Translations under genes and position numbers: made by a program
Source of the DNA: Felis catus
Lineage: Eukaryota
DNA length: 64,000 bases
Direction of reading: 5' to 3'
Assembly: GCF_018350175.1 (NCBI RefSeq)
Contig: NC_058368.1
Location: 36,706,001-36,770,000 of the forward strand
Part shown: positions 12,231 through 53,012 of the stretch, one piece after another
How the letters are laid out: each line of letters begins with the position of its first letter
Numbering within the stretch: the stretch's first letter is position 1
The notes under the pieces: model-generated
Told to the model about the DNA's origin: nothing
Seen by the model: the letters and a program-made list of their open reading frames with translations, nothing else
The model's database searches: none

Positions 12231-12742
12231 CAGCGGCCGTTCAGACATAGGCAGAATCAGGCTGGAGGCAAACTGACCTGGCCGGGCGTACACGTCCTAA
12301 CCTATTCTCGCGGGATCTCAGGAGTTCCCGCCGGAAATTAGCAGGAGCGAGCTGGGATGAGAAAAACCTGGGCGCCCAGGGGGCTGGCGGGCTCTCCTCC
12401 GAGACTCAATCCAAAGGAATCTGGCTCATTCCATTTCTCACACAAAACCCAATCCTCGTGGCCTCGCTCCCTCAACCCAGAGTCACAATGCAGCGGTGCC
12501 TCGCCTCAGAGCCCCGGAAAGGTGCATGCGAACGGGGTGTGGCCCAAAAGCCGAGGAACGGAGGCATGACTGAGGCCTGAACTGGGGAGTGAATTGCGCA
12601 TGCCTGGGCCGCAAAGCCTTGCGAATCCGGAAAGGCCCTGGCAGCTCTGTGGGCGCCGGTTGCCGAGTCTCGGACAGCAGCAGCCCCGAAGTGCCGCCCC
12701 ATCGCACATCCCTGGTGCCAGTTATTCCACCAGGCAGCTGCG
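12231..12742. promoter_or_regulatory. CpG-rich island / candidate promoter
   Basis: About 34 CpGs in ~510 bp by hand count, in an otherwise CpG-poor window. Motifs: TCTCGCGGGA (12306-12315), TTCCCGCC (12325-12332), three CCGGAA (12331, 12514, 12627), TGCGCATGCC (12595-12604). Confidence 0.65.
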
Positions 12743-12994
12743 AGGTGTCTAAAATTCATCCCAGGAAACCATTGCTGCCTGTTCCTTGAAGCTTTCCCCT
12801 GAATAGCATGCCTCAGAGCATTCTTCTCTCTTTCTGACCCAGCACATCTATCAGCACACTGTGATGGGGAAGATGGCTTTTTCACCCAACCCCTTCACGA
12901 GGGGATTGAACAATGCAGTTGTCAGTGAGAGGCGGCCCTCTGCAGTATAAAAACGGGTATGGCTTATTCATTTTATAACTGGAAATTCGGAAAG

Positions 12995-24790: not shown

Positions 24791-25717
24791 ACCAGAATAT
24801 TCTTTTTCTGATGGAGTGAGAATAGTATGAGAAATAGTGCCATTATTTTGCTTCTTTACATCCAGACATTTAGATCTTTTACTTGAGTTCAGTAGTTTTA
24901 TGACTAGTATAACTAGTGTTCAGTTGGTGTATAATCATAGAATGAATGAAAAGATGATTACTGGAAAATAAGGTTTTAAAATCATGGGATCACCATAAGC
25001 CATATTATTGCTATATGTCGTCCTTTTCTTTCATTTTCCCTTTCTATATTCTTTCTCTTTCTCTAGATAATTCCCTCCTGCTTTCAGGATGGTATATACA
25101 TCTTTCAATGCTTTATAGCTTTCTTGGAGTAGCTTATAAAGAACCAGTGATGTTCTTCTTGTGCTTTGTCTTAATTCAACCCAAACATGTCTTCAGATAG
25201 ATAGGTTAGATGCCTCATGGAATCAAATAGTGACTTTATTTGATTAGTCTCATCAAAGATAATTAGGCAAAATTAGTTTGGGTTATAAATATAAATAGCA
25301 GTTTGTTTTTGTTTCTCCCCCAGTTTAACTTAAGTTTAGCTATTAAATATTCGGGCCCAGGTTGGAGAATTATGGCAAGAGGAAATATCTGAGAAGGCTG
25401 TTTCTCTTGGTCCCTGTAAATAACCTGACAAAGAGACTTGTTGCTTAACCAATGCCTAATGTGTTCATTTGGAATGCTCTGATGCTCAATTTTATTAGGC
25501 ATTTACAAAACAAAGGCTGTTTTCCCCCTGCATTGTAATTAGCGTAATTAGAGTTTATGTGTGAAGTATCATATATCTACTGTGGAGGTATTTCAGGGTA
25601 ACAAGGATACTGAATTATCTCACTAAGATTGTTGGTTTAAGTAATTTATTTATGTAGCATATTTAATAATACTTCACATTACAAAATTAAAGTTCCTCCA
25701 GTCAAAATAGCATTGAG

Positions 25718-25903
25718 CTGCGGAATGAATAATCACGGGAATAAAAGGCACAACATAAGGAATAACAGTCAATGATATTGTAATAGTGATGTAGGGGGGA
25801 CAGCATCATGTATAAACTTGTTGAATCATTGTGTTGTACACCTGAAACTAAGTAACAATGTGTGTCAATGATTCTCAGCCCTTCTCCCAAAGCCCCCAAA
25901 CCC
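25718..25903 (+). mobile_element. 5'-truncated carnivore/L1MA 3' end
   Basis: gttgaatcattgtgttgtacacctgaaactaa is the L1 terminus; perfect 15-bp TSD caaaatagcattgag at 25703-25717 and 25904-25918. Confidence 0.88.
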
Positions 25904-27984
25904 CAAAATAGCATTGAGTGATTTGGAACAAAAATCTTGCTTGTGCTCTTCCTGCTATTCAGGGCTAACTGAGTCTAATATTTATATATGAAATGGGAAA
26001 CAGACTATAGCAAGATTATAGAATGATTTTTTTTCCCTGAGAGGCTAACAAGAATAAGCAAAGTGTCATGCCATGCTAAGGTAGAGAACAAATTGTAAAT
26101 ATAGAGAGTGGAAACAGGTTTCTGATTTATATTGCTGCTATCTTTTGGGGATCAGCTTCCATTGTTACCATAATGAGTTATGTTGAAAAGGGCAGATAAG
26201 GTTGCTGAGTGGCTGATTGGAGAGCCCCCAAGAGAATACCCAAGAAACTGAGTTGCAGCACATGTTGGAGCAGCCTCTCAAGTGAAAATAAATCCACAGC
26301 ATGTGGTTTTCTGCCAGAGAGTACTTGCCATTCACTGCATAGTTCATCTGGATAGGTACAAGTGTATTTCTCTTTCAAATCACAAAATGCAAAATGGGAA
26401 ATGTTATACATTGTGTAGACCAGCACTGGGTCTGCAGTTTTCTAGATCTCATGTAAAAGTGGAATCTAGGCAGTAGCCAGGCATTATATTGGCCTTTTAA
26501 AAAATCACATTTTTTTAAAATGCAGTTGAAGTTCATCCGAAGTGGCTCCTGTTATTTCAGACCAATTTTTAATTGATATGCGCAGTCTATTTTCTCTTTA
26601 CTCCCAAACGCCACTATTGATCAAAAGTTAAATTGGACCAAGTTGCTATGCATAACATATTGTCAGCTCTAACACACTTTTCACCCCCGCCCCGCCCCCC
26701 CCCCCCCAGTCTTGGTGCCCTTAATTATACTTAACCACATCAGTGTTCAATTAAATTCACATCAGAGTTAGAGTGCATATGTAAATTTGTTGCTGTTGTG
26801 AATTTCAGAGAGAGAACTACTTTGCAAGGACATGCGTACAATTCAGGGCAATAGGTAGAAAATATTGCAGAGGCAGTTGGTGATGTGTGTTGTATGGAGA
26901 AGTGGGAGGTTTCCTGTATCCTTTCATTCTGTCTCAAATGGGCGAGATGTTGTGCAACATGTAAAGAAGGCTCAGTGATTATAACTTTTCACCTCTTTCT
27001 AGAAATTTTAAATCTCAGTTATTTTTATCATTTACCATGGCAAATATCTTACCCCTGATTGCCACTCTTGCAAATTACTTTGTTCTCCAATTTTGTTCAG
27101 TAGCAGAAAGAGCTGCATAGTATTCATTTTTTTTTCCAGATGATTTTCATGAGATGTAGACTGAATTATTTATAACTTCTTCTTGGAAGATTATGACCTA
27201 GTGCTCTACTCAATTTTTTTTTGATATAGCTCAGGCAATAATGATTTCTAACTAGTGCACTTTCTATGGATTACTAGCCACTTGAAAGAGTTCAATGTTT
27301 CATTAGATTTATTCAATCCTCTTAGAATTGCCAGTAAAAAGACGAGGGCCAGAGGCAGAGGTTGATGTCATTAAAAAGTTTCAAAAATACCTTTGCGAAA
27401 CTCTTCATATCTGACTGCTAGAACTACAAGTTTCTGCTGAAATTATGGTCAGATTTCCTTTGGTAGAAAATGAATAGGTCATGTTTACAGCATACAACTC
27501 TTTTGTATGAGATATGTGAGTGTATTAAAGACCATTACAGACTATATTAAAGATCCACTTCTTCACTGATTTAAACTGGAAATGCCATGGATATCACATA
27601 TTCTACTACTAGAGATAAAAGTTGATTTCTACTACCCTTTCTTAGTTTCCTATGCATCAAAATTAGTAGTTGCATGGAATAGGAAAACTGTATTGAGATA
27701 TGAATTGTAACACTTGATAGCTTGTGGATGTCACAAATAACATTTATTTTCAAAATCACTTAACACATGAAAAAAATCAGTAGTCATCTTGAGTCTCTTC
27801 ATGCTTTTTTTTTTTTCTTTCCCCCAACATGTATCTCAAAGGTAACTTACAGGTAAACTGAGGTTGACAGTATCAGGCAGTAGCCAACCAGGCTTGGTCC
27901 CAAGCTGCTTTAGAGCGCATGTCTCTGATGAGGACACATGTATGATAGAAACATGGAACATGGAACTTTCAAGCAAAATATTTT

Positions 27985-28418
27985 GCTGTCCCTCAGCCCT
28001 TCAGCTTACATGTTATGGAGCTGTTGGTGAGAAGTGGCTGTTCTGCTGGGGACCACATTTTCCAAGACCCTCTTGTTAGATTTAGCCGCTGATTGGGTTT
28101 AGTAAATGGAAAGGGACTGCAAGTGATGCCCGTGACTTTCAAGCCCGACACGTACTCTTCTGTCCTACTCTTTTCCAGGCTCTTCTTTCCCTCTAGCCAG
28201 TTGGGAAGGTGATAACTCCCAGGATGAACTTACAAGCTTTCTGGTAAAGATGGCAGAATTTATGTAATCCTGAGTTCCTATGGCTTCATTGAAGGGCTAT
28301 TCCTTCTGTTTTCCTGTTCAGTATTATTAGGTGAGAAATCAAGAAATTTTAATTATGTTGGGTCTCTGAAACTTTTGGTTTTATTTGTTACAGCAGCTAG
28401 GGCTTCTCTAACTAAAAA
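27985..28418 (+). mobile_element. MaLR LTR (MLT1I/J-like)
   Basis: gaccacattttccaagaccctcttg...aagatggcagaa...tttgttacagcagctag...ctaactaa. Confidence 0.65.
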
Positions 28419-29677
28419 AGCATGTGAATTCATCCATGCATATATAGGCAAAACCCAAGAAATGAATTAAAGGCAGGGGGAGGGTTGGCAGAGAGGGAGA
28501 GAGAAAGAGGTTTTATTTTGGGTCCTAAGTTGTTGAAGATAACCATGGAAGAAAGGTAGGTTTAATCCATTTCAATTTTAAGGCAAGAAAAGCTATTGTA
28601 AACTAGTTTTAGAGTTGGGGGTCAATGTAAGATTCAAGTATAGTCCCTAAAAAAAAAGAGACCAAAAAATTTCAGGCTATCTCCAAACCCCTACTGCTTC
28701 TACTCATTAATTCTTGTTTTGTGTTTGGTAAATGAGGGAAATTATAGCATCTTCAGTCACAGGTGTCATATAAGTCAGTCAAATCGCACTGTTGTTTGCT
28801 CTTATAATTTCAGTTCGTTATGAATGCAAAGTAGTTTTAGTTAGGGTCCTTCTAAAGGGGAAGTGAGTACTATACATGAGTTTCTTTGGTGCTTTTTCCT
28901 GGTCCTAGCTTCCTTGGCCCCAGGTTTTGACAGCGGAATAAATGGGCTGTGCATGAGGCTGTGAAATAAGTGCTGTTAAAATGTGCAGTGTTCAACGTTG
29001 AAGAGGAACTGCATTTCAATACATGATAAAATTTCCAGATTACCTTGAAAATTGGGCCTGCTACTGTCCGTTACATTGAAAGAATTCCAGCACACTAAAT
29101 TACCTGACAAGTTGTGGTGTCTTATGTGCTATATTGATATTGGAGTATTTGTTTTGCTTCAATGGGCACTTAATTATTTGTTTCTTTCTGACAGGGTACC
29201 AGAATTAATTTGTAGCATTATGAAGTTTCATTAAACATCCCCTTGAAAGCAAGGGCTGGATCTTGTAACCCTGGTGCATCATCTGAATGTTTAGCCCACA
29301 GTTTAAATATATTAAATTAGAGTTATGAGTTACTTTTAAAAGAGAAGAAATGACAGCTTTTCCATCCTCATGGAGATTTCAGGGATGCAAGCTGAAAGGA
29401 CCGCAACTGTAGGAAATGGAGGTAGTTGTCAGAATCCGGGTTATGATGGGCTCATGGGGACATGGCTTTCAGTAGACACTGGTACCGCTCAGAGGTACAC
29501 TTTCTGCCTTTTAGCAATTACAAATTATTTTTATGTAAACAAAGCACAAGTTCTGGCAAAAGGTCCTTTTTTGAAAAACAAAAGACGGAATGAGTTGATT
29601 CAAAGGTTTTGTACATCCTTGGTGTGTCAAGTTTTCATTAGTAATAATCTATGGGATAGATGTGAATTAATATACGA

Positions 29678-29728
29678 ATATATCATATATATGATATGAT
29701 ATATGATATGATATGATATATTCATATA
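29678..29728. repeat. (ATATG)n simple repeat
   Basis: Direct reading of the sequence. Confidence 0.85.
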
Positions 29729-31750
29729 TTAATAATTATGAGCTCTGTAGCAAGAAGAAAAAAAGCCCTAGAAAGTTAAATGTTTTTTATTTAGTGCTGA
29801 AATACCAAAAATTTTGGTTTTGCTTCTATCTGAAAGGTAATTGAGAATATCAGAAAGGTAAAATAATTTCCTTTAGATATTCATGAGAGTGCTTTTTTTT
29901 CTCTGAAGAAGATGTAGTTGTACATATAAGAAAAACTTACTTTCACTTCCAGAGATACAGTCCTTTACTGGGTAAGCAGTATTTTCTAATCAAAATGACA
30001 CTAATGGGTCAGATTTAATGGTCAGAAATTTGAAAGCCTAAATGAAGGACTGTTCTTTCATAGAATTGTGTGAGCAATTTTGAAAGATAATGTTGGTGGC
30101 GTTTCTAATTTATTTTGTGATGAACTCCTAAAATGCATTTAGATGTGATTCTAATAATGATACTCTCCTGTTACTAAGGATCTCCGAAGAAGCTGGTTTT
30201 ATGGGAAAATGCCTGTATGAATAAGTCATCCTGTGATCTTCTGAAGTGGGTATTCAGGAGACACGGAAAGGAAAGAAAAGGAAAGAAAAAATACTCCTAC
30301 ATTCATATGGGGAGTAAGTGTTTTTTCCCTATTATAATATCAGAAACAAGCTAGTTATAGATCAAGAAGAATAATGGAGAAAAATGTTACAAAATTGAAG
30401 CCAAAATTCAGCCTTTTCTTTGTGCCCTTAGTGGTGCTAGCATGCTATATACTTTATGATGACAACAATAGTCATGACAATAATTATACATGGAGTTGTG
30501 ATCCAAGATTCCCCACGTGTGCTCCATTTGTCCAGCTTGTTCATTTTGTGAAGTTGGTTTGGACAAAATATTGACAGTATTGAAACCTATCCCCTGCTGT
30601 GTTTAGAGGAAGTAGTTTTATATTAGTTCCATAGTTTTATGTGTAGTTGAAAAAGAACGTCTTCTGAAAATGGAGAGCCCATTAAGAATTGTGGTACCTC
30701 TATCTGTTCTCCAAGAAGAGCTAACTGATGCCAATTTTGGAAGGAAGAAAAAGGAAGCACATAGTCAGGATATTTGAATCCACACCTCAAATTCATGGTA
30801 CTTAGATGTTCTTTTCAAAGTTCAGGCGTTCTTATTGTGGGAAATAAACAAGAAACTTTGTCAAATAATATTGTATTAAAATACTGAAGAGTAGCACTAA
30901 AATGAAACTAATGGGCATTTTAGACAAAGCGAGACCAGTTACATTTTGCTTACAGTGGGTGTTAATTTTTTAAATGTTTGGATAAAAGCTGGAGATTTTT
31001 GTTTATTTCTCACTGGTACATTTGAGATGAAAAACAGAAATCTCTTCTAATATTTCGTAGAAATTAGTGAATGGGATTTTAGTAAGTGGAATAAGTAGTT
31101 CTTTATGATAAATTTTGAAGAAACTATTTCAGGTGTTCTTTCAGTTTCAGATACTGTAGGAAAATAAATAAAAGAAATATGGTGTAAAAATAACTATGTG
31201 AGTCACTTCTTATACTATTCTACCTGACAGTCGCTATAGGACTATTTTCAGAAGAATTGTTAATATACTACAATCATTTGTAATATGCCCCATTCATGTA
31301 TACTGAGGCTGTGTTTAAGAGAAAATAAGAATATATCATTGTTCTCTACATAGTAAGTTCTGCAATACAATCTTTTGTATTAATAAGCAATAGTCTATAA
31401 CAAGCAGCATTTTACTGTTTTGGAGATTATTTTTTGGAAATTTCTTTTGGTTACGGACCTCTGTAAAGAATATTATGAAATCATAGCAAAGCACCTTTGT
31501 TCATTTATGAGGTGGAATTAGGGTGGGTATATGAGTATATTTCTTTTATTACACTTACATTTCTCTAGCATTGCTGTACTTTTTCTGTAGATTATTTTCT
31601 TAGCTGTATAAAAAGCTGGACAGTGAAAAATACGTGAGTAATAACATGGGAAGCATTCTTACATAATTCTTGTATCAAAATTGTCTATTGGCAAAAAGGG
31701 AGAAGCTTTTTACTATAAGAAGAAGGTTTTATTAAAAGAGTAAAAATCTG

Positions 31751-33664: not shown

Positions 33665-35697
33665 TGAATTGTCCCTATTTTCTTGGCTGATCTGCAGTGA
33701 TACTTCTCTCCTGTATGAAGTTACCAGATATGCACAGGTCTGTTTCTGGGCTCTCTCATCCCTTCTGTTGGTTTAGTCATCTATCTCTGCTTCAATATTG
33801 TACTGTCTTAAATAATATAGTTTATAATAAGACTTGATGTATGACAGAGTGACTTCCCTATTCTTCTCATACTTCAAATAGTTTTTTGCTCTTTTAATAC
33901 AAATTTTAGAATCAGTTTGTCAAGATCCAAAGCGAGACAAGTCCATTGGGATTCTGTTTGAAATTGTATTGAATGTATAGATTTCTCTTTTCAAACTGCA
34001 GAAAAAAATGGGTCTGATTGCACTTTATTTCCTACCTACCATCCTAGAAATACTTTTGCATCTTGCATTCAAAGAGTCCTACATCTACTCTCTGGAGGCA
34101 GCCTTCAGTACATCAAAGGGTATCTGCTCCATTAGGATGACCAATGGGGACTTTCCAGCACTTCCTCTCTAACTAGCTCAAAGGAGGAAAACCAAGCAAG
34201 TTTATTCTCTGGTGAGGCACCCCATTAGGAGATCAAATGAAGACTGAGAAAAAGAACAAGTCAGCACAAATCAGTGCAGTTGGGACAGAGGTTGAGATTT
34301 CATTTACATTCTTTGCAAGCCTCCTTACTTCCTATCTTTGCCACCATGTAATATCCTTTACCATAGGAAGGGGAAGATAGAGTTAAGAGAAATGGGGAAT
34401 CATGTTAAGATGGGGAGGGGTGAAGTATGAAATTGATTTATGGAAGATTATATTTCATTGTAATTTTAAAGATTGATCTAATCTATTCATTTTATAATAA
34501 ATGGTCATACCATTTATAATAAATGGTCAAATGGTGGCTGAGAGAATTTAAGTGGCTTGTTTAAAGTGGCCTAACTAGTAAATAGAAGAGCCTTGATTGT
34601 CAAATTATCTGGCCCATTGACCAATGCTCTTCAAATTCAAACATTTAAAAGACTATAAAAGTAATTAATTATTATAATTACTATTATTATTGTATTTTAA
34701 TTAGAAGAATCTCTGCTCATCACCGTCTCTACTCATTGTACCATTATTTCTGATACTTTCATGTTTTATGAACTTTGAATCTCTCATAGTATAAAACAAT
34801 GCACTGATAGCTGGCTGGTGCACCTACTGTCTCTCTCTCTCCTCTCCTCTCTCATCATCTATCCAATCTGTCATGGCATAAATAATATAGAAACAACTAC
34901 TACTTATTTCATGTATGTGGGTATGTACCTGTGTATCTTTTTCTGATTCACCTTAAATATGCTGCTGTTAGGAAAGTATTCATAGGCATTTTTATTTGTT
35001 AAATATAGGTTACCTAATGTGAGGTTTGTTTCCATAAGTGTTTTAGTAAATGATCATTTCTACCTGCTTGTCTGTTTTCTGGTAAAATCTGAAACATATC
35101 TTCTCTTTTTTATTACTGTTACTAGTTCTTCAGACATAATATTTAACCTATTTACAACAGAAAAATCATGTTTATCTCAATTTCAAAATGATAATATATT
35201 TTATTTAAGTGTGCTTTAAAACTTATGTTAGGGTAAAATGGAATTATAATGAAGTCATTTGGTCTAGGAAGGTTGAGTAAGATGGGAATTTGGAGCACAT
35301 GCTCAGTAGAAGAAATGAAATAGGGAAAGAAATTTCACTTTTGAGGAACAAATGACACAGAGAGGGCAAGACTGCTTTTTTAGGGTAGAATCTTGGGTAA
35401 GGTTCCTTTTAAACCATTTTTTTTTAAGGTTGTGGCAGATCCATTAACTTCTCCAGGTTCATGTATTAATAATCTAGTCCCACTTGTCTAACTTAAAAGT
35501 TTCTTCCCAGAGTCAGAAACCTACATAGGGAAGGTGACAGGCATTTTTGTCTTTCCCGACTCACTGCTGTCTGAGGCTTTCCGGGTCAGAGAGAAGGATG
35601 AGCCAGAACTGGAGGAGAAGGGCTTATCTGATTGGCAGTGGTGTGGTCTGTCATGTGTGCTCTCTGTGAGACGATGCCCTATAGCTGAGCCCTTCTC

Positions 35698-35750
35698 TTC
35701 TGGGGCACTTCTGGGTTCTAGGCACTTCTGGGTTCTGGGGCGCTTCTGGG
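35698..35750. repeat. Three tandem copies of a 17-18-bp unit
   Basis: ttctggggcacttctggg / ttctaggcacttctggg / ttctggggcgcttctggg. Confidence 0.9.
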
Positions 35751-36582
35751 TTTTGACTTCTTTCAATGCTGGATACTATAATAACCCAGGAAAACATCTT
35801 GGCATGTGTAACAGTATACTAAATGGAATATTTCCTGTTGTCTCAAAGCTTTAGAGAAAGCCGTAAAGGTAAAGACAAACATAGTAAAGTATAATACTCC
35901 AAAAAGATATGCCAAAATACCTATATGGAAACACCTATGTATGACTTGCGAAGAACTGGCCCGAAGCTAGTTAGGCAACCTTGAACTCATTCCCCAACAG
36001 GAGATGGATGGAAAGGGCCACCAGGAGATGGATGAGTAAAGACCGTTGAGTCAAGAATACTTTACGGTGAGGTATAGAAGTGCTGTATGTTGGAAAGTTT
36101 CTGCTACTCCCACTGCTACCTCAAGCCAAGTGGTTCCCCCAAGAGAACTGTTTAGAGAGTTTGACATATAACTCTAGTATTTTAAAGGCACAGGGGCTAG
36201 TGCCTGAAAAAGTCCAAAATAAGCAGGTAACCAGAGTAGAGTGAAGAGAGAGGGGGATGCACTGGAAATGGTCTGCATTTCCAGCATTTGAAGGAGTTTG
36301 GGGGTCGCATTTACCCCATGAGCTAAATGCTGTAAAGGGTGGCCAGAAATGAGTCATCTTGAATGATTTTGACAAGGAAATCTACCTGGCAGGTGCAAGG
36401 TACCCACTGCAAGAGTCTGGGTAGGGTTCACATCAGGAAGTCAGGTTGAGATAGGTGAATCAGGGAACAATGTAGTGTTATCAGTTCTAAGGTATCAGGA
36501 AATGTTCCGTTTAGTTTACTGTTAAACATGCTAAGATGTTTTCCTGGGTTATTATAATATCTAGCATTGAAAGAAGTCAAAA
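35751..36582. repeat. Long inverted repeat: 87-bp arms at 35751-35837 and 36496-36582, 658-bp spacer
   Basis: Manual alignment of arm 1 with the reverse complement of arm 2: 80/87 identical, no gaps. Confidence 0.95.
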
Positions 36583-36720
36583 TTTGTTCCTTGGATCAAA
36601 GTAGAGCCACCATTGCATAGACAGCATTTTGATGTTTAGAGTTTGCAGCCCTGGGGTTGTGGGTTTTTTGTGTGTATGTGTGTTGTGAGGGATGCATGTA
36701 TGGTGTAGGGAGAACAGTAA

Positions 36721-37153
36721 TATATTTGTCAGGATTCTCCAGAGAATTGGCTTCTTGTAATTGTTAGGGAAGGGGGAAATTGGTTCATGTAACCATGGGA
36801 GTTGTTAAGTCCAAAATCCTTAAGGCGAGTTCAGTAGGCCAGAAATTCAGGTAAGAGTTGATGTTGCAGTCTTAAGTATGAAATCTGAAGGGAAGGCAAG
36901 CAGGCTGGAAACAGGCAGGATTTCTGTGTTGCAGTTTGAGGGCAGGATTTCTTAGCTGGGAGATCCTAGTCTTTACTCCTAAGGCCTTCAACTGATTTCA
37001 CCCATCTGAGACAATCTGCTTTACTTAAAGTCCACTGATTGTAAATGTTAATCACATGTAAAAAATACCTTCACAGCAACATCTAGACTAGTGTTTGACC
37101 AAACAGCTGGGCACCAAAGCCTACCAAATTGACATAGAGGATTAACCATCACA
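36721..37153 (-). mobile_element. MLT2 (ERV-L) solo LTR, MLT2D-like
   Basis: Starts gtcaggattctccagagaa and ends aaataccttcacagcaacatctagactagtgtttgaccaaac...attaaccatcaca, the reverse complement of MLT2. Confidence 0.88.
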
Positions 37154-52903: not shown

Positions 52904-53012
52904 TTAAATAAGTTTATTTTTTGAGTAATCTCTCCACCCAACATGGGGCTTGAACTCACGACCCCGAGATCAAGAGTTGCGTGCTCTTCCAACTGAGCCA
53001 GTCAGGCACCCC
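52904..53012 (-). mobile_element. Short Can-SINE lacking the (CT)n tract
   Basis: tRNA-like head only; 17-bp TSD agatttatgttcatttt at 52887-52903 and 53013-53029. Confidence 0.9.

What the first reader, a model, noticed from the sequence alone, without database searches (positions are those of the whole stretch)
35751..36582. Unassigned 87-bp inverted repeat enclosing ~660 bp: inversion scar, fold-back element or long dsRNA stem
Seen directly: 35751-35837 matches the reverse complement of 36496-36582 at 80/87 positions without gaps. The outer boundary is sharp, and weak pairing continues ~10 bp inward. The arms are not SINE, L1 or MIR and match no TIR I recognise; I see no target-site duplication outside them. 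Four of the 7 mismatches would be G-U wobbles in a + strand transcript, so a ~90-bp RNA stem is feasible (a potential ADAR, Dicer or endo-siRNA substrate). Inferred alternatives: (a) a staggered-break inversion, A-R-B-C to A-R-B'-R'-C, which leaves exactly this kind of inverted duplication; (b) a non-autonomous DNA transposon with long TIRs carrying captured sequence; (c) arms kept similar by gene conversion or selection on RNA structure. The ~8% arm divergence looks lower than that of the ancient repeats nearby.
Basis: partly seen in the sequence, partly recalled or inferred. Interest (0 to 1): 0.7.

Follow-up and report, generated by a model that had tools for sequence, protein, structure and literature searches.

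The report
Old copy-and-flip scar in cat DNA
An 87-base stretch of ordinary non-coding cat DNA was once copied backwards about 660 bases away, probably while the DNA in between was flipped, and this looks like a known kind of copying or repair scar with no sign of a function.

Summary
The inverted repeat is real: 80 of 87 positions match. Independent cat-family contigs show the same arrangement across all four arm ends. It has no target-site duplication, no poly-A tail and no third copy in the window, so a DNA transposon or 5'-inverted retrocopy is unlikely. One homologue, about 16% diverged and seen only as a chance reading frame (P0002), runs from the arm straight into the spacer for about 410 bases. 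Its two outermost residues weakly favour the right flank (4-8 to 1), and the T/A skew flips at the arms. Both point to the mirror event, A-B-R'-C to A-R-B'-R'-C, an 'inverted repeat with inverted spacer' template switch. The G/C skew does not flip, and a plain inverted copy without inversion remains open. A 13-base imperfect extension inside the arms may have primed the switch. Two contig sets show no editing in the arms, and transcription was not shown. Verdict: a neutral rearrangement scar of a known kind (about 0.8 for the class, 0.5 for this exact route); interest is low.

The parts
35751..35837 (+). Left arm (R), 87 bp, 33% G+C
36496..36582 (-). Right arm (R'), reverse complement of R at 80 of 87 positions; carries 4 of the 5 differences that P0002 can polarise
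35838..36495 (.). Spacer, 658 bp. T/A skew is opposite to both flanks; G/C skew is not. The first ~325 bases follow the arm in the homologue P0002. Probably inverted relative to the ancestor (inferred)
35838..35850 (+). Inner 13-bp imperfect extension of the left arm; its left half agrees with P0002
36483..36495 (-). Inner 13-bp imperfect extension of the right arm; 7 matches plus 3 possible G-T pairs; candidate priming site of the template switch (inferred)
35698..35752 (+). Tandem repeat, 17-18 bp unit, 3.1 copies, ending at the outer end of the left arm; may be slippage at or after the junction
36583..36720 (.). Right flank (C). Its first bases are the better match to the two outermost residues of P0002 (4-8 to 1)

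Best explanation
A single local copying or repair accident in a cat-lineage ancestor. The ancestral order was A-B-R'-C. Synthesis left the template at the end of A, copied R' and B backwards from the opposite strand, then rejoined at the start of R', giving A-R-B'-R'-C: the 658-bp spacer flipped and the 87-bp arm duplicated. [quoted passage not shown] A 13-base imperfect inverted match at the spacer ends may have helped the return switch. The arms have drifted neutrally since. SHOWN: the repeat, its presence in other cat-family samples, no TSD, and arm-to-spacer continuity in a diverged homologue. INFERRED: that P0002 is the orthologue, that it has one arm only, that the spacer flipped, the priming role of the 13 bases, and neutrality. 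For the wider class (neutral local duplication scar, this or rival 1) I put about 0.8.
For: P0002 aligns to 35746-36111 in one frame (tblastn E 2e-25 against a 2.5-kb piece) and to 36111-36161 after a frame shift, so arm and spacer were contiguous in a lineage about 16% diverged (10-22% not rejected). Its two residues outside the arm fit the right flank better than the left, 3.8-8.2 to 1 across assumed divergences. The cumulative T-minus-A curve turns at 35763 and 36470, at the arms, and the T/A contrast is matched by at most 1% of control positions for all 7 flank settings (0 of 2488 overlapping positions). Arm divergence (8%, 95% interval 3-16%) is lower than the homologue's distance (p 0.06). 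No TSD or poly-A, no third copy in the window. The pattern is a recognised class: 0.26 of great-ape short-range template switches (PMC7954356, S1 Table).
Against: The outer-flank evidence is six bases read through a translation, from one cluster of three identical-core proteins of an unnamed organism; orthology is not shown, and P0002 does not reach the right junction. The G/C skew of the spacer (+0.20) has the same sign as both flanks, and the full-composition orientation test favours a flip only with 100-base flanks (1 of 7 settings). The T/A statistic was chosen after seeing the data. Plain inverted copies are commoner: 0.49 against 0.26, and 27 of 166 long-read rearrangements against one inversion with deletion and duplication (PMC5829575 passages). 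The 5 transitions in the inner 13 bases look more like common descent than chance priming homology, which hints at an older repeat. The p of 0.06 does not exclude a repeat as old as the split.
Confidence: 0.5

Rival explanations
1. Inverted displaced copy without inversion. The ancestor was A-R-spacer-C. The nascent strand folded back through the 13-base imperfect match (632-nt loop), copied the 87 bases of R backwards, and resumed at C (event 3-2-1-4). The spacer never flipped.
For: Fits the arm-to-spacer continuity of P0002 equally well. It is the commonest template-switch product (0.49), and opposite-strand non-tandem duplication is common at this scale (21+6 of 166). The left arm and its inner extension are closer to P0002 (12 against 15 minimum changes; 4 of 5 polarised sites). 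The G/C skew does not flip.
Against: Outer residues of P0002 favour the right flank 4-8 to 1. T/A skew reverses at the arms. The 4:1 asymmetry is not significant (p about 0.4, by hand) and is not expected to differ between the models.
Confidence: 0.27
2. An older inverted repeat of 100 bp or more, present before the split from the P0002 lineage, whose outer 87 bp were later made alike by gene conversion or quasi-palindrome correction. The spacer may have flipped between lineages.
For: The inner 13 bases differ by 5 transitions and 1 transversion, the pattern of an older shared ancestry (p 0.004). Arm divergence is only marginally below the outgroup distance (p 0.06). A flipped spacer in the other lineage would also give right flank-arm-spacer in P0002. 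One X19 contig has G>A at 36509, which makes the arms match there.
Against: Needs an extra event. The 36509 change is at a CpG, so recurrent mutation explains it, and it rests on one contig of depth 3.4. No joint or flipped spacer in the two contig sets laid. Conversion between 90-bp diverged arms is expected to be rare (recalled).
Confidence: 0.13
3. A non-autonomous DNA transposon with 87-bp terminal inverted repeats around captured sequence.
For: The shape (long inverted ends, sharp outer boundary) fits in form.
Against: No TSD. No other copy in 64 kb. One homologous cluster only among 1.84 billion representatives and 5.8 billion proteins. No match for arm patterns in viral, prokaryote or metagenome contigs, though those collections hold little mammal DNA. 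No Pfam family in six frames. Genome-wide copy number was not testable.
Confidence: 0.04
4. An RNA stem kept by selection (ADAR, Dicer or endo-siRNA substrate).
For: Both strands fold the stem (z -8.5 and -10.1 against 20 shuffles), which any inverted repeat would do. Contigs from RNA-labelled libraries hold the stretch. X17 has 0 differences in the 174 arm bases against 11 in about 1,150 other bases. About 8% of human intergenic inverted duplicates are expressed (PMC5398296 abstract).
Against: The RNA-library contigs may be DNA. No read in 1-2% samples of two raw RNA runs (no test by the tool's own note). No A>G or T>C in the arms. 0 against about 1.7 expected differences is not significant. 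G-U share is at chance. No Rfam family. No Pfam hit at threshold in 80 candidate exons and ORFs, so no host gene was identified.
Confidence: 0.04
5. A 5'-inverted (twin-primed) retrocopy with a duplicated inversion junction, my own first guess.
For: A T9 run at 35417-35425 and an A-rich minus strand in the left flank; twin priming explains about 85% of human inversions under 2 kb (10.1101/2021.12.20.472354, abstract start in the listing).
Against: The minus-strand version needs the arm to continue into the reverse-complemented spacer, which P0002 contradicts. The plus-strand version needs a poly-A and TSD to the right: none found to 46,000. No parent protein. The 7-base match near the T run is at chance level (3 seen, about 2.5 expected, by hand).
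Confidence: 0.04

Closest known systems
Template-switch event 'inverted repeat with inverted spacer' (four-point types 3-1-2-4 / 1-3-4-2; Walker et al. 2021, PMC7954356; passages and S1 Table read)
   Same: Same product: a formerly single segment duplicated in reverse around a flipped spacer, no TSD.
   Different: Those events are short-range (tens to hundreds of bases) with the ancestral state known; here about 745 bases were copied and the ancestral state rests on one partial, translated homologue.
Inversion with inverted duplication at one breakpoint by staggered breaks (Ranz et al. 2007, PMC1885836; passages read)
   Same: Non-repetitive sequence duplicated in reverse at an inversion end; 12 of their inversions have the duplication from one breakpoint only; mean duplicate identity about 88%.
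   Different: Those are chromosome-scale Drosophila inversions; this one is under 1 kb in a mammal, and the two mechanisms cannot be told apart from the product.
Non-tandem opposite-strand duplication (Frith and Khan 2018, PMC5829575; passages incl. Table 2 read; author names recalled)
   Same: A short local segment copied nearby in reverse; 21 of 166 events, plus 6 with deletion.
   Different: No inversion of the spacer; this is rival 1.
Intergenic inverted duplicates of mammals (Chen et al. 2017, PMC5398296; abstract, passages and section 12 read)
   Same: Arms 10-10,000 nt, spacer up to 1,000 nt; this one falls in their longest arm class (36 nt or more); millions per genome in all classes together.
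   Different: Cat was not among their 21 genomes; expression of this element was not shown.

Membership tests
Template-switch / staggered-break inversion with duplicated end | Inverted copy of a locally unique segment | tested here: met
   Two copies only in 64 kb; genome-wide uniqueness not testable
Template-switch / staggered-break inversion with duplicated end | Single arm in the outgroup | tested here: inconclusive
   P0002 covers one arm and ~325 bases of spacer only; no further homologue found
Template-switch / staggered-break inversion with duplicated end | Spacer in opposite orientation to the flanks in the outgroup | tested here: inconclusive
   Outer residues 4-8 to 1 for a flip; T/A skew for, G/C skew against
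Template-switch / staggered-break inversion with duplicated end | Short homology at a switch point | tested here: inconclusive
   7 matches plus 3 G-T pairs in 13 bases next to the inner arm end; none visible at the outer end
Non-autonomous DNA transposon (MITE) | Terminal inverted repeats | tested here: met
   In form only
Non-autonomous DNA transposon (MITE) | Target-site duplication | tested here: not met
Non-autonomous DNA transposon (MITE) | Dispersed copies in the genome; ends matching a known superfamily | not testable with these tools
5'-inverted (twin-primed) retrocopy | Poly-A tail and TSD bracketing the insert | tested here: not met
5'-inverted (twin-primed) retrocopy | Identifiable parent transcript or L1 body | tested here: not met
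   a non-coding parent would be missed
Hairpin RNA / endo-siRNA / ADAR substrate | Transcription across both arms | tested here: inconclusive
   0 reads in 1-2% of two raw RNA runs; contigs from RNA libraries may be DNA
Hairpin RNA / endo-siRNA / ADAR substrate | A-to-G editing in the stem | tested here: inconclusive
   None in the arms in X17 (both arms) or X19 (right arm); contigs drop minority variants
Hairpin RNA / endo-siRNA / ADAR substrate | 21-23-nt reads; compensatory changes across species | not testable with these tools
   No small-RNA run laid; no orthologous DNA obtained
Two opposite copies of a known repeat (repeat-mediated inversion) | Arms match a catalogued repeat | not testable with these tools
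   No match to the window's SINEs or other repeats; no repeat library available

The most novel reading that the evidence does not exclude
The repeat is older than it looks: a 100-bp unique-sequence inverted repeat shared across mammalian orders, whose arms are re-homogenised within lineages and whose 660-bp spacer has toggled orientation between them (right flank-arm-spacer in the P0002 lineage, left flank-arm-spacer in cats), possibly kept because it folds a long RNA stem. That would be recurrent inversion and concerted evolution driven by arms far shorter than usually thought necessary.
Probability: 0.08. Interest if true: 0.55.

Novelty: new member of a known kind. Interest (0 to 1): 0.2.

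Why it matters
If the best reading holds, it matters little: one more fixed sub-kilobase template-switch or staggered-break scar, usable as a clean phylogenetic marker for feliforms and as an example, larger than most catalogued short-range switches, with a candidate priming site still visible. It would matter more only if outgroups hold both arms, which would show concerted evolution or spacer toggling on 90-bp arms.

Tried and rejected
Whole-genome copy count: no genome held. Rfam at gathering scores: nothing at the repeat. Coding origin: Pfam in six frames, one sub-threshold hit of E 0.17; PDB none; two longer-protein searches none of 178 and 104 candidates; ESM Atlas no usable hit for the flank ORF or P0002. 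Arm patterns: 0 matches in viral, prokaryote-genome and metagenome contigs. More outgroups: only P0001 among 131 candidates; none of 590 and 353 pattern matches confirmed; three viral loci L001-L003 at 29% identity over a low-complexity part were taken as chance and not read. Host gene: 2 of 80 candidate exons and ORFs had Pfam matches, both below the curated cut-off; the whole window was not scanned in six frames, so exons may be missed. Earlier notes of the scan: nothing near, by sequence or in relatives. Twin-primed retrocopy, my first guess, was dropped on P0002 and the lack of a TSD. Two of the right arm's derived changes are TGG>TAG, which recalls APOBEC3 damage (recalled), but two events show nothing. 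Four literature searches were on mechanism; none was for this locus, so I make no claim that it is absent from print.

Full report
OBSERVATION. The repeat is as described. 35751-35837 matches the reverse complement of 36496-36582 at 80 of 87 positions without gaps, E 2e-30. The differences are 5 transitions and 2 transversions; divergence is 8% (95% interval 3-16%). A gapped alignment adds only 13 inner bases, of which 7 match and 5 differ by transitions (empirical p 0.004). A 17-18-bp unit repeated 3.1 times ends at the outer edge of the left arm. Neither arm, spacer nor right flank has another copy in the window under relaxed BLAST; the left flank has one weak 36-base match, E 0.009.

NOT AN ARTEFACT. 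Of 24 listed runs, 14 (5 studies, one organism label) hold all 147 sampled words of 35300-36700; one may be the assembly's source. I laid 4 of the 24. In X17, one contig spans 35510-36115 and another 36060-36657, bridging both ends of both arms in the window's order, with 11 substitutions in about 1,320 bases and none in the arms. In X19 one contig spans the right arm. No joints were seen. Contigs drop rare variants, so a rare flipped allele is not excluded. The organism is taken to be a cat from its SINEs (recalled) and the scan's notes (unchecked).

WHAT IT IS NOT. No target-site duplication was found, nor a poly-A with a matching duplication in either orientation. No protein family, structure or parent gene was found, and no Rfam family. 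No repeat library was available, so membership of a catalogued old repeat is untested.

THE OUTGROUP CLUE. A search of 1.84 billion protein representatives with one frame of 35830-36582 gave a single hit, P0001 (E 5e-6), in a cluster of three unnamed Logan proteins with the same core. These look like chance reading frames on homologous non-coding DNA: the match crosses cat stop codons and changes frame, and the Atlas does not recognise it. The longest, P0002, aligns to 35746-36161. Over the first 47 ungapped codons 32 residues are identical and at least 18 of 141 bases differ, which simulation puts at about 16% DNA divergence, 10-22% not rejected. Three things follow. First, arm and spacer start are contiguous in that lineage in the order seen at the left arm. 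Second, the two residues outside the arm fit the right flank better than the left, by 3.8-8.2 to 1. This is six bases and ignores indels. Third, of the 7 arm differences 4 side with the left arm, 1 with the right and 2 are silent. Whether P0002 is the orthologue, and whether its genome has a second arm, is not known; I found no more homologues.

COMPOSITION. T exceeds A in both flanks (+0.23, +0.26) and A exceeds T in the spacer (-0.16). The cumulative curve turns at 35763 and 36470, and the contrast is reached by at most 1% of control positions in all 7 flank settings. Against this, the G/C skew keeps its sign across the spacer, the full-composition test favours a flip in only 1 of 7 settings, control positions overlap, and I chose the T/A statistic after seeing the data. 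I count it as mild support.

MECHANISM. Two one-step routes fit. In the mirror inversion (A-B-R'-C to A-R-B'-R'-C), synthesis leaves after A, copies R' and B backwards, and rejoins at the start of R'. In the plain inverted copy (A-R-spacer-C), the nascent strand folds back and copies R only. In both, the 13 inner bases, which could form 7 Watson-Crick and 3 G-T pairs next to the arm end, would be the priming site; that is inference. Published frequencies favour the plain copy: 0.49 against 0.26 among short-range ape events (PMC7954356 S1 Table), and more strongly at larger scale (PMC5829575 Table 2). The outer residues and the T/A skew favour the inversion. I put the inversion at 0.5 and the plain copy at 0.27. 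An inversion with one staggered break (PMC1885836 passages) gives the same product as the first route. An older repeat later homogenised (0.13) explains the transition-rich inner 13 bases best and is not excluded (p 0.06).

RNA READING. The fold is strong on both strands but follows from the repeat itself. Four of five transitions being G-U on the + strand is within chance. No editing-type change lay in the arms in two contig sets, and two raw RNA runs sampled at 1-2% gave no reads, which is no test. No host gene was identified (80 candidates only). Inverted duplicates number in the millions per mammalian genome and a minority are expressed (PMC5398296 abstract and section 12). Selection on an RNA stem is unsupported, not disproved.

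AGE. The arms are about as diverged as pairs of the younger SINEs in the window (87-98% identical) and about half as diverged as cat from the P0002 lineage, which suggests an event in the feliform or early felid line (inferred; no dated calibration).

PAPERS SEEN. PMC7954356: passages and supplement 1. PMC5829575, PMC1885836: passages. PMC5398296: abstract, passages, section 12. PMC8755829: abstract only (microinversions flanked by inverted repeats). 10.1101/2021.12.20.472354: search listing only; its supplements are closed and were not seen.

VERDICT. A real, fixed, sub-kilobase inverted-duplication scar of a known kind, most likely with a flipped spacer in the mirror orientation to the one first proposed. 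Interest 0.2.

Noticed in passing
window 35400-36720: The whole block around the repeat is richer in G+C (43-48%, arms excepted) than 34500-35400 (32%), and would be A-rich on the minus strand throughout if the spacer is turned round; it may be one old unannotated element or retrocopy ending at the T9 run at 35417-35425.
   Followed up: partly
window 36721-37153: LTR on the minus strand that resembles MLT2 (ERVL family; name recalled, no library test), 138 bases outside the right arm.
   Followed up: no
window 35998-36010 and 36022-36034: Perfect 13-bp direct repeat inside the spacer; P0002 has unrelated, Phe/Tyr/Leu-rich residues in this stretch, so one lineage gained or lost sequence here.
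   Followed up: no
window 12250-12750: CpG-rich, promoter-like patch with NRF1-like and ETS-like motifs (names recalled); no Pfam match in five overlapping frames tested. Could be the start of an unannotated transcript running towards the repeat.
   Followed up: partly
window about 1000-2450: Broken remnant resembling ERVL pol/integrase (recalled resemblance, seen in the translations printed); many stops and frame shifts.
   Followed up: no
window 52935-53007: Rfam tRNA match (34 bits), probably the tRNA-derived head of a carnivore SINE.
   Followed up: no
window about 24800-31700: About 7 kb, A+T-rich, with no match to the window's other repeats in the self-comparison; no Pfam match at threshold in the ORFs tested.
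   Followed up: partly
window 35417, 36308, 36657: Both laid contig sets differ from the window at these three places (two substitutions, one inserted G), so the window may carry minor alleles or errors there.
   Followed up: no
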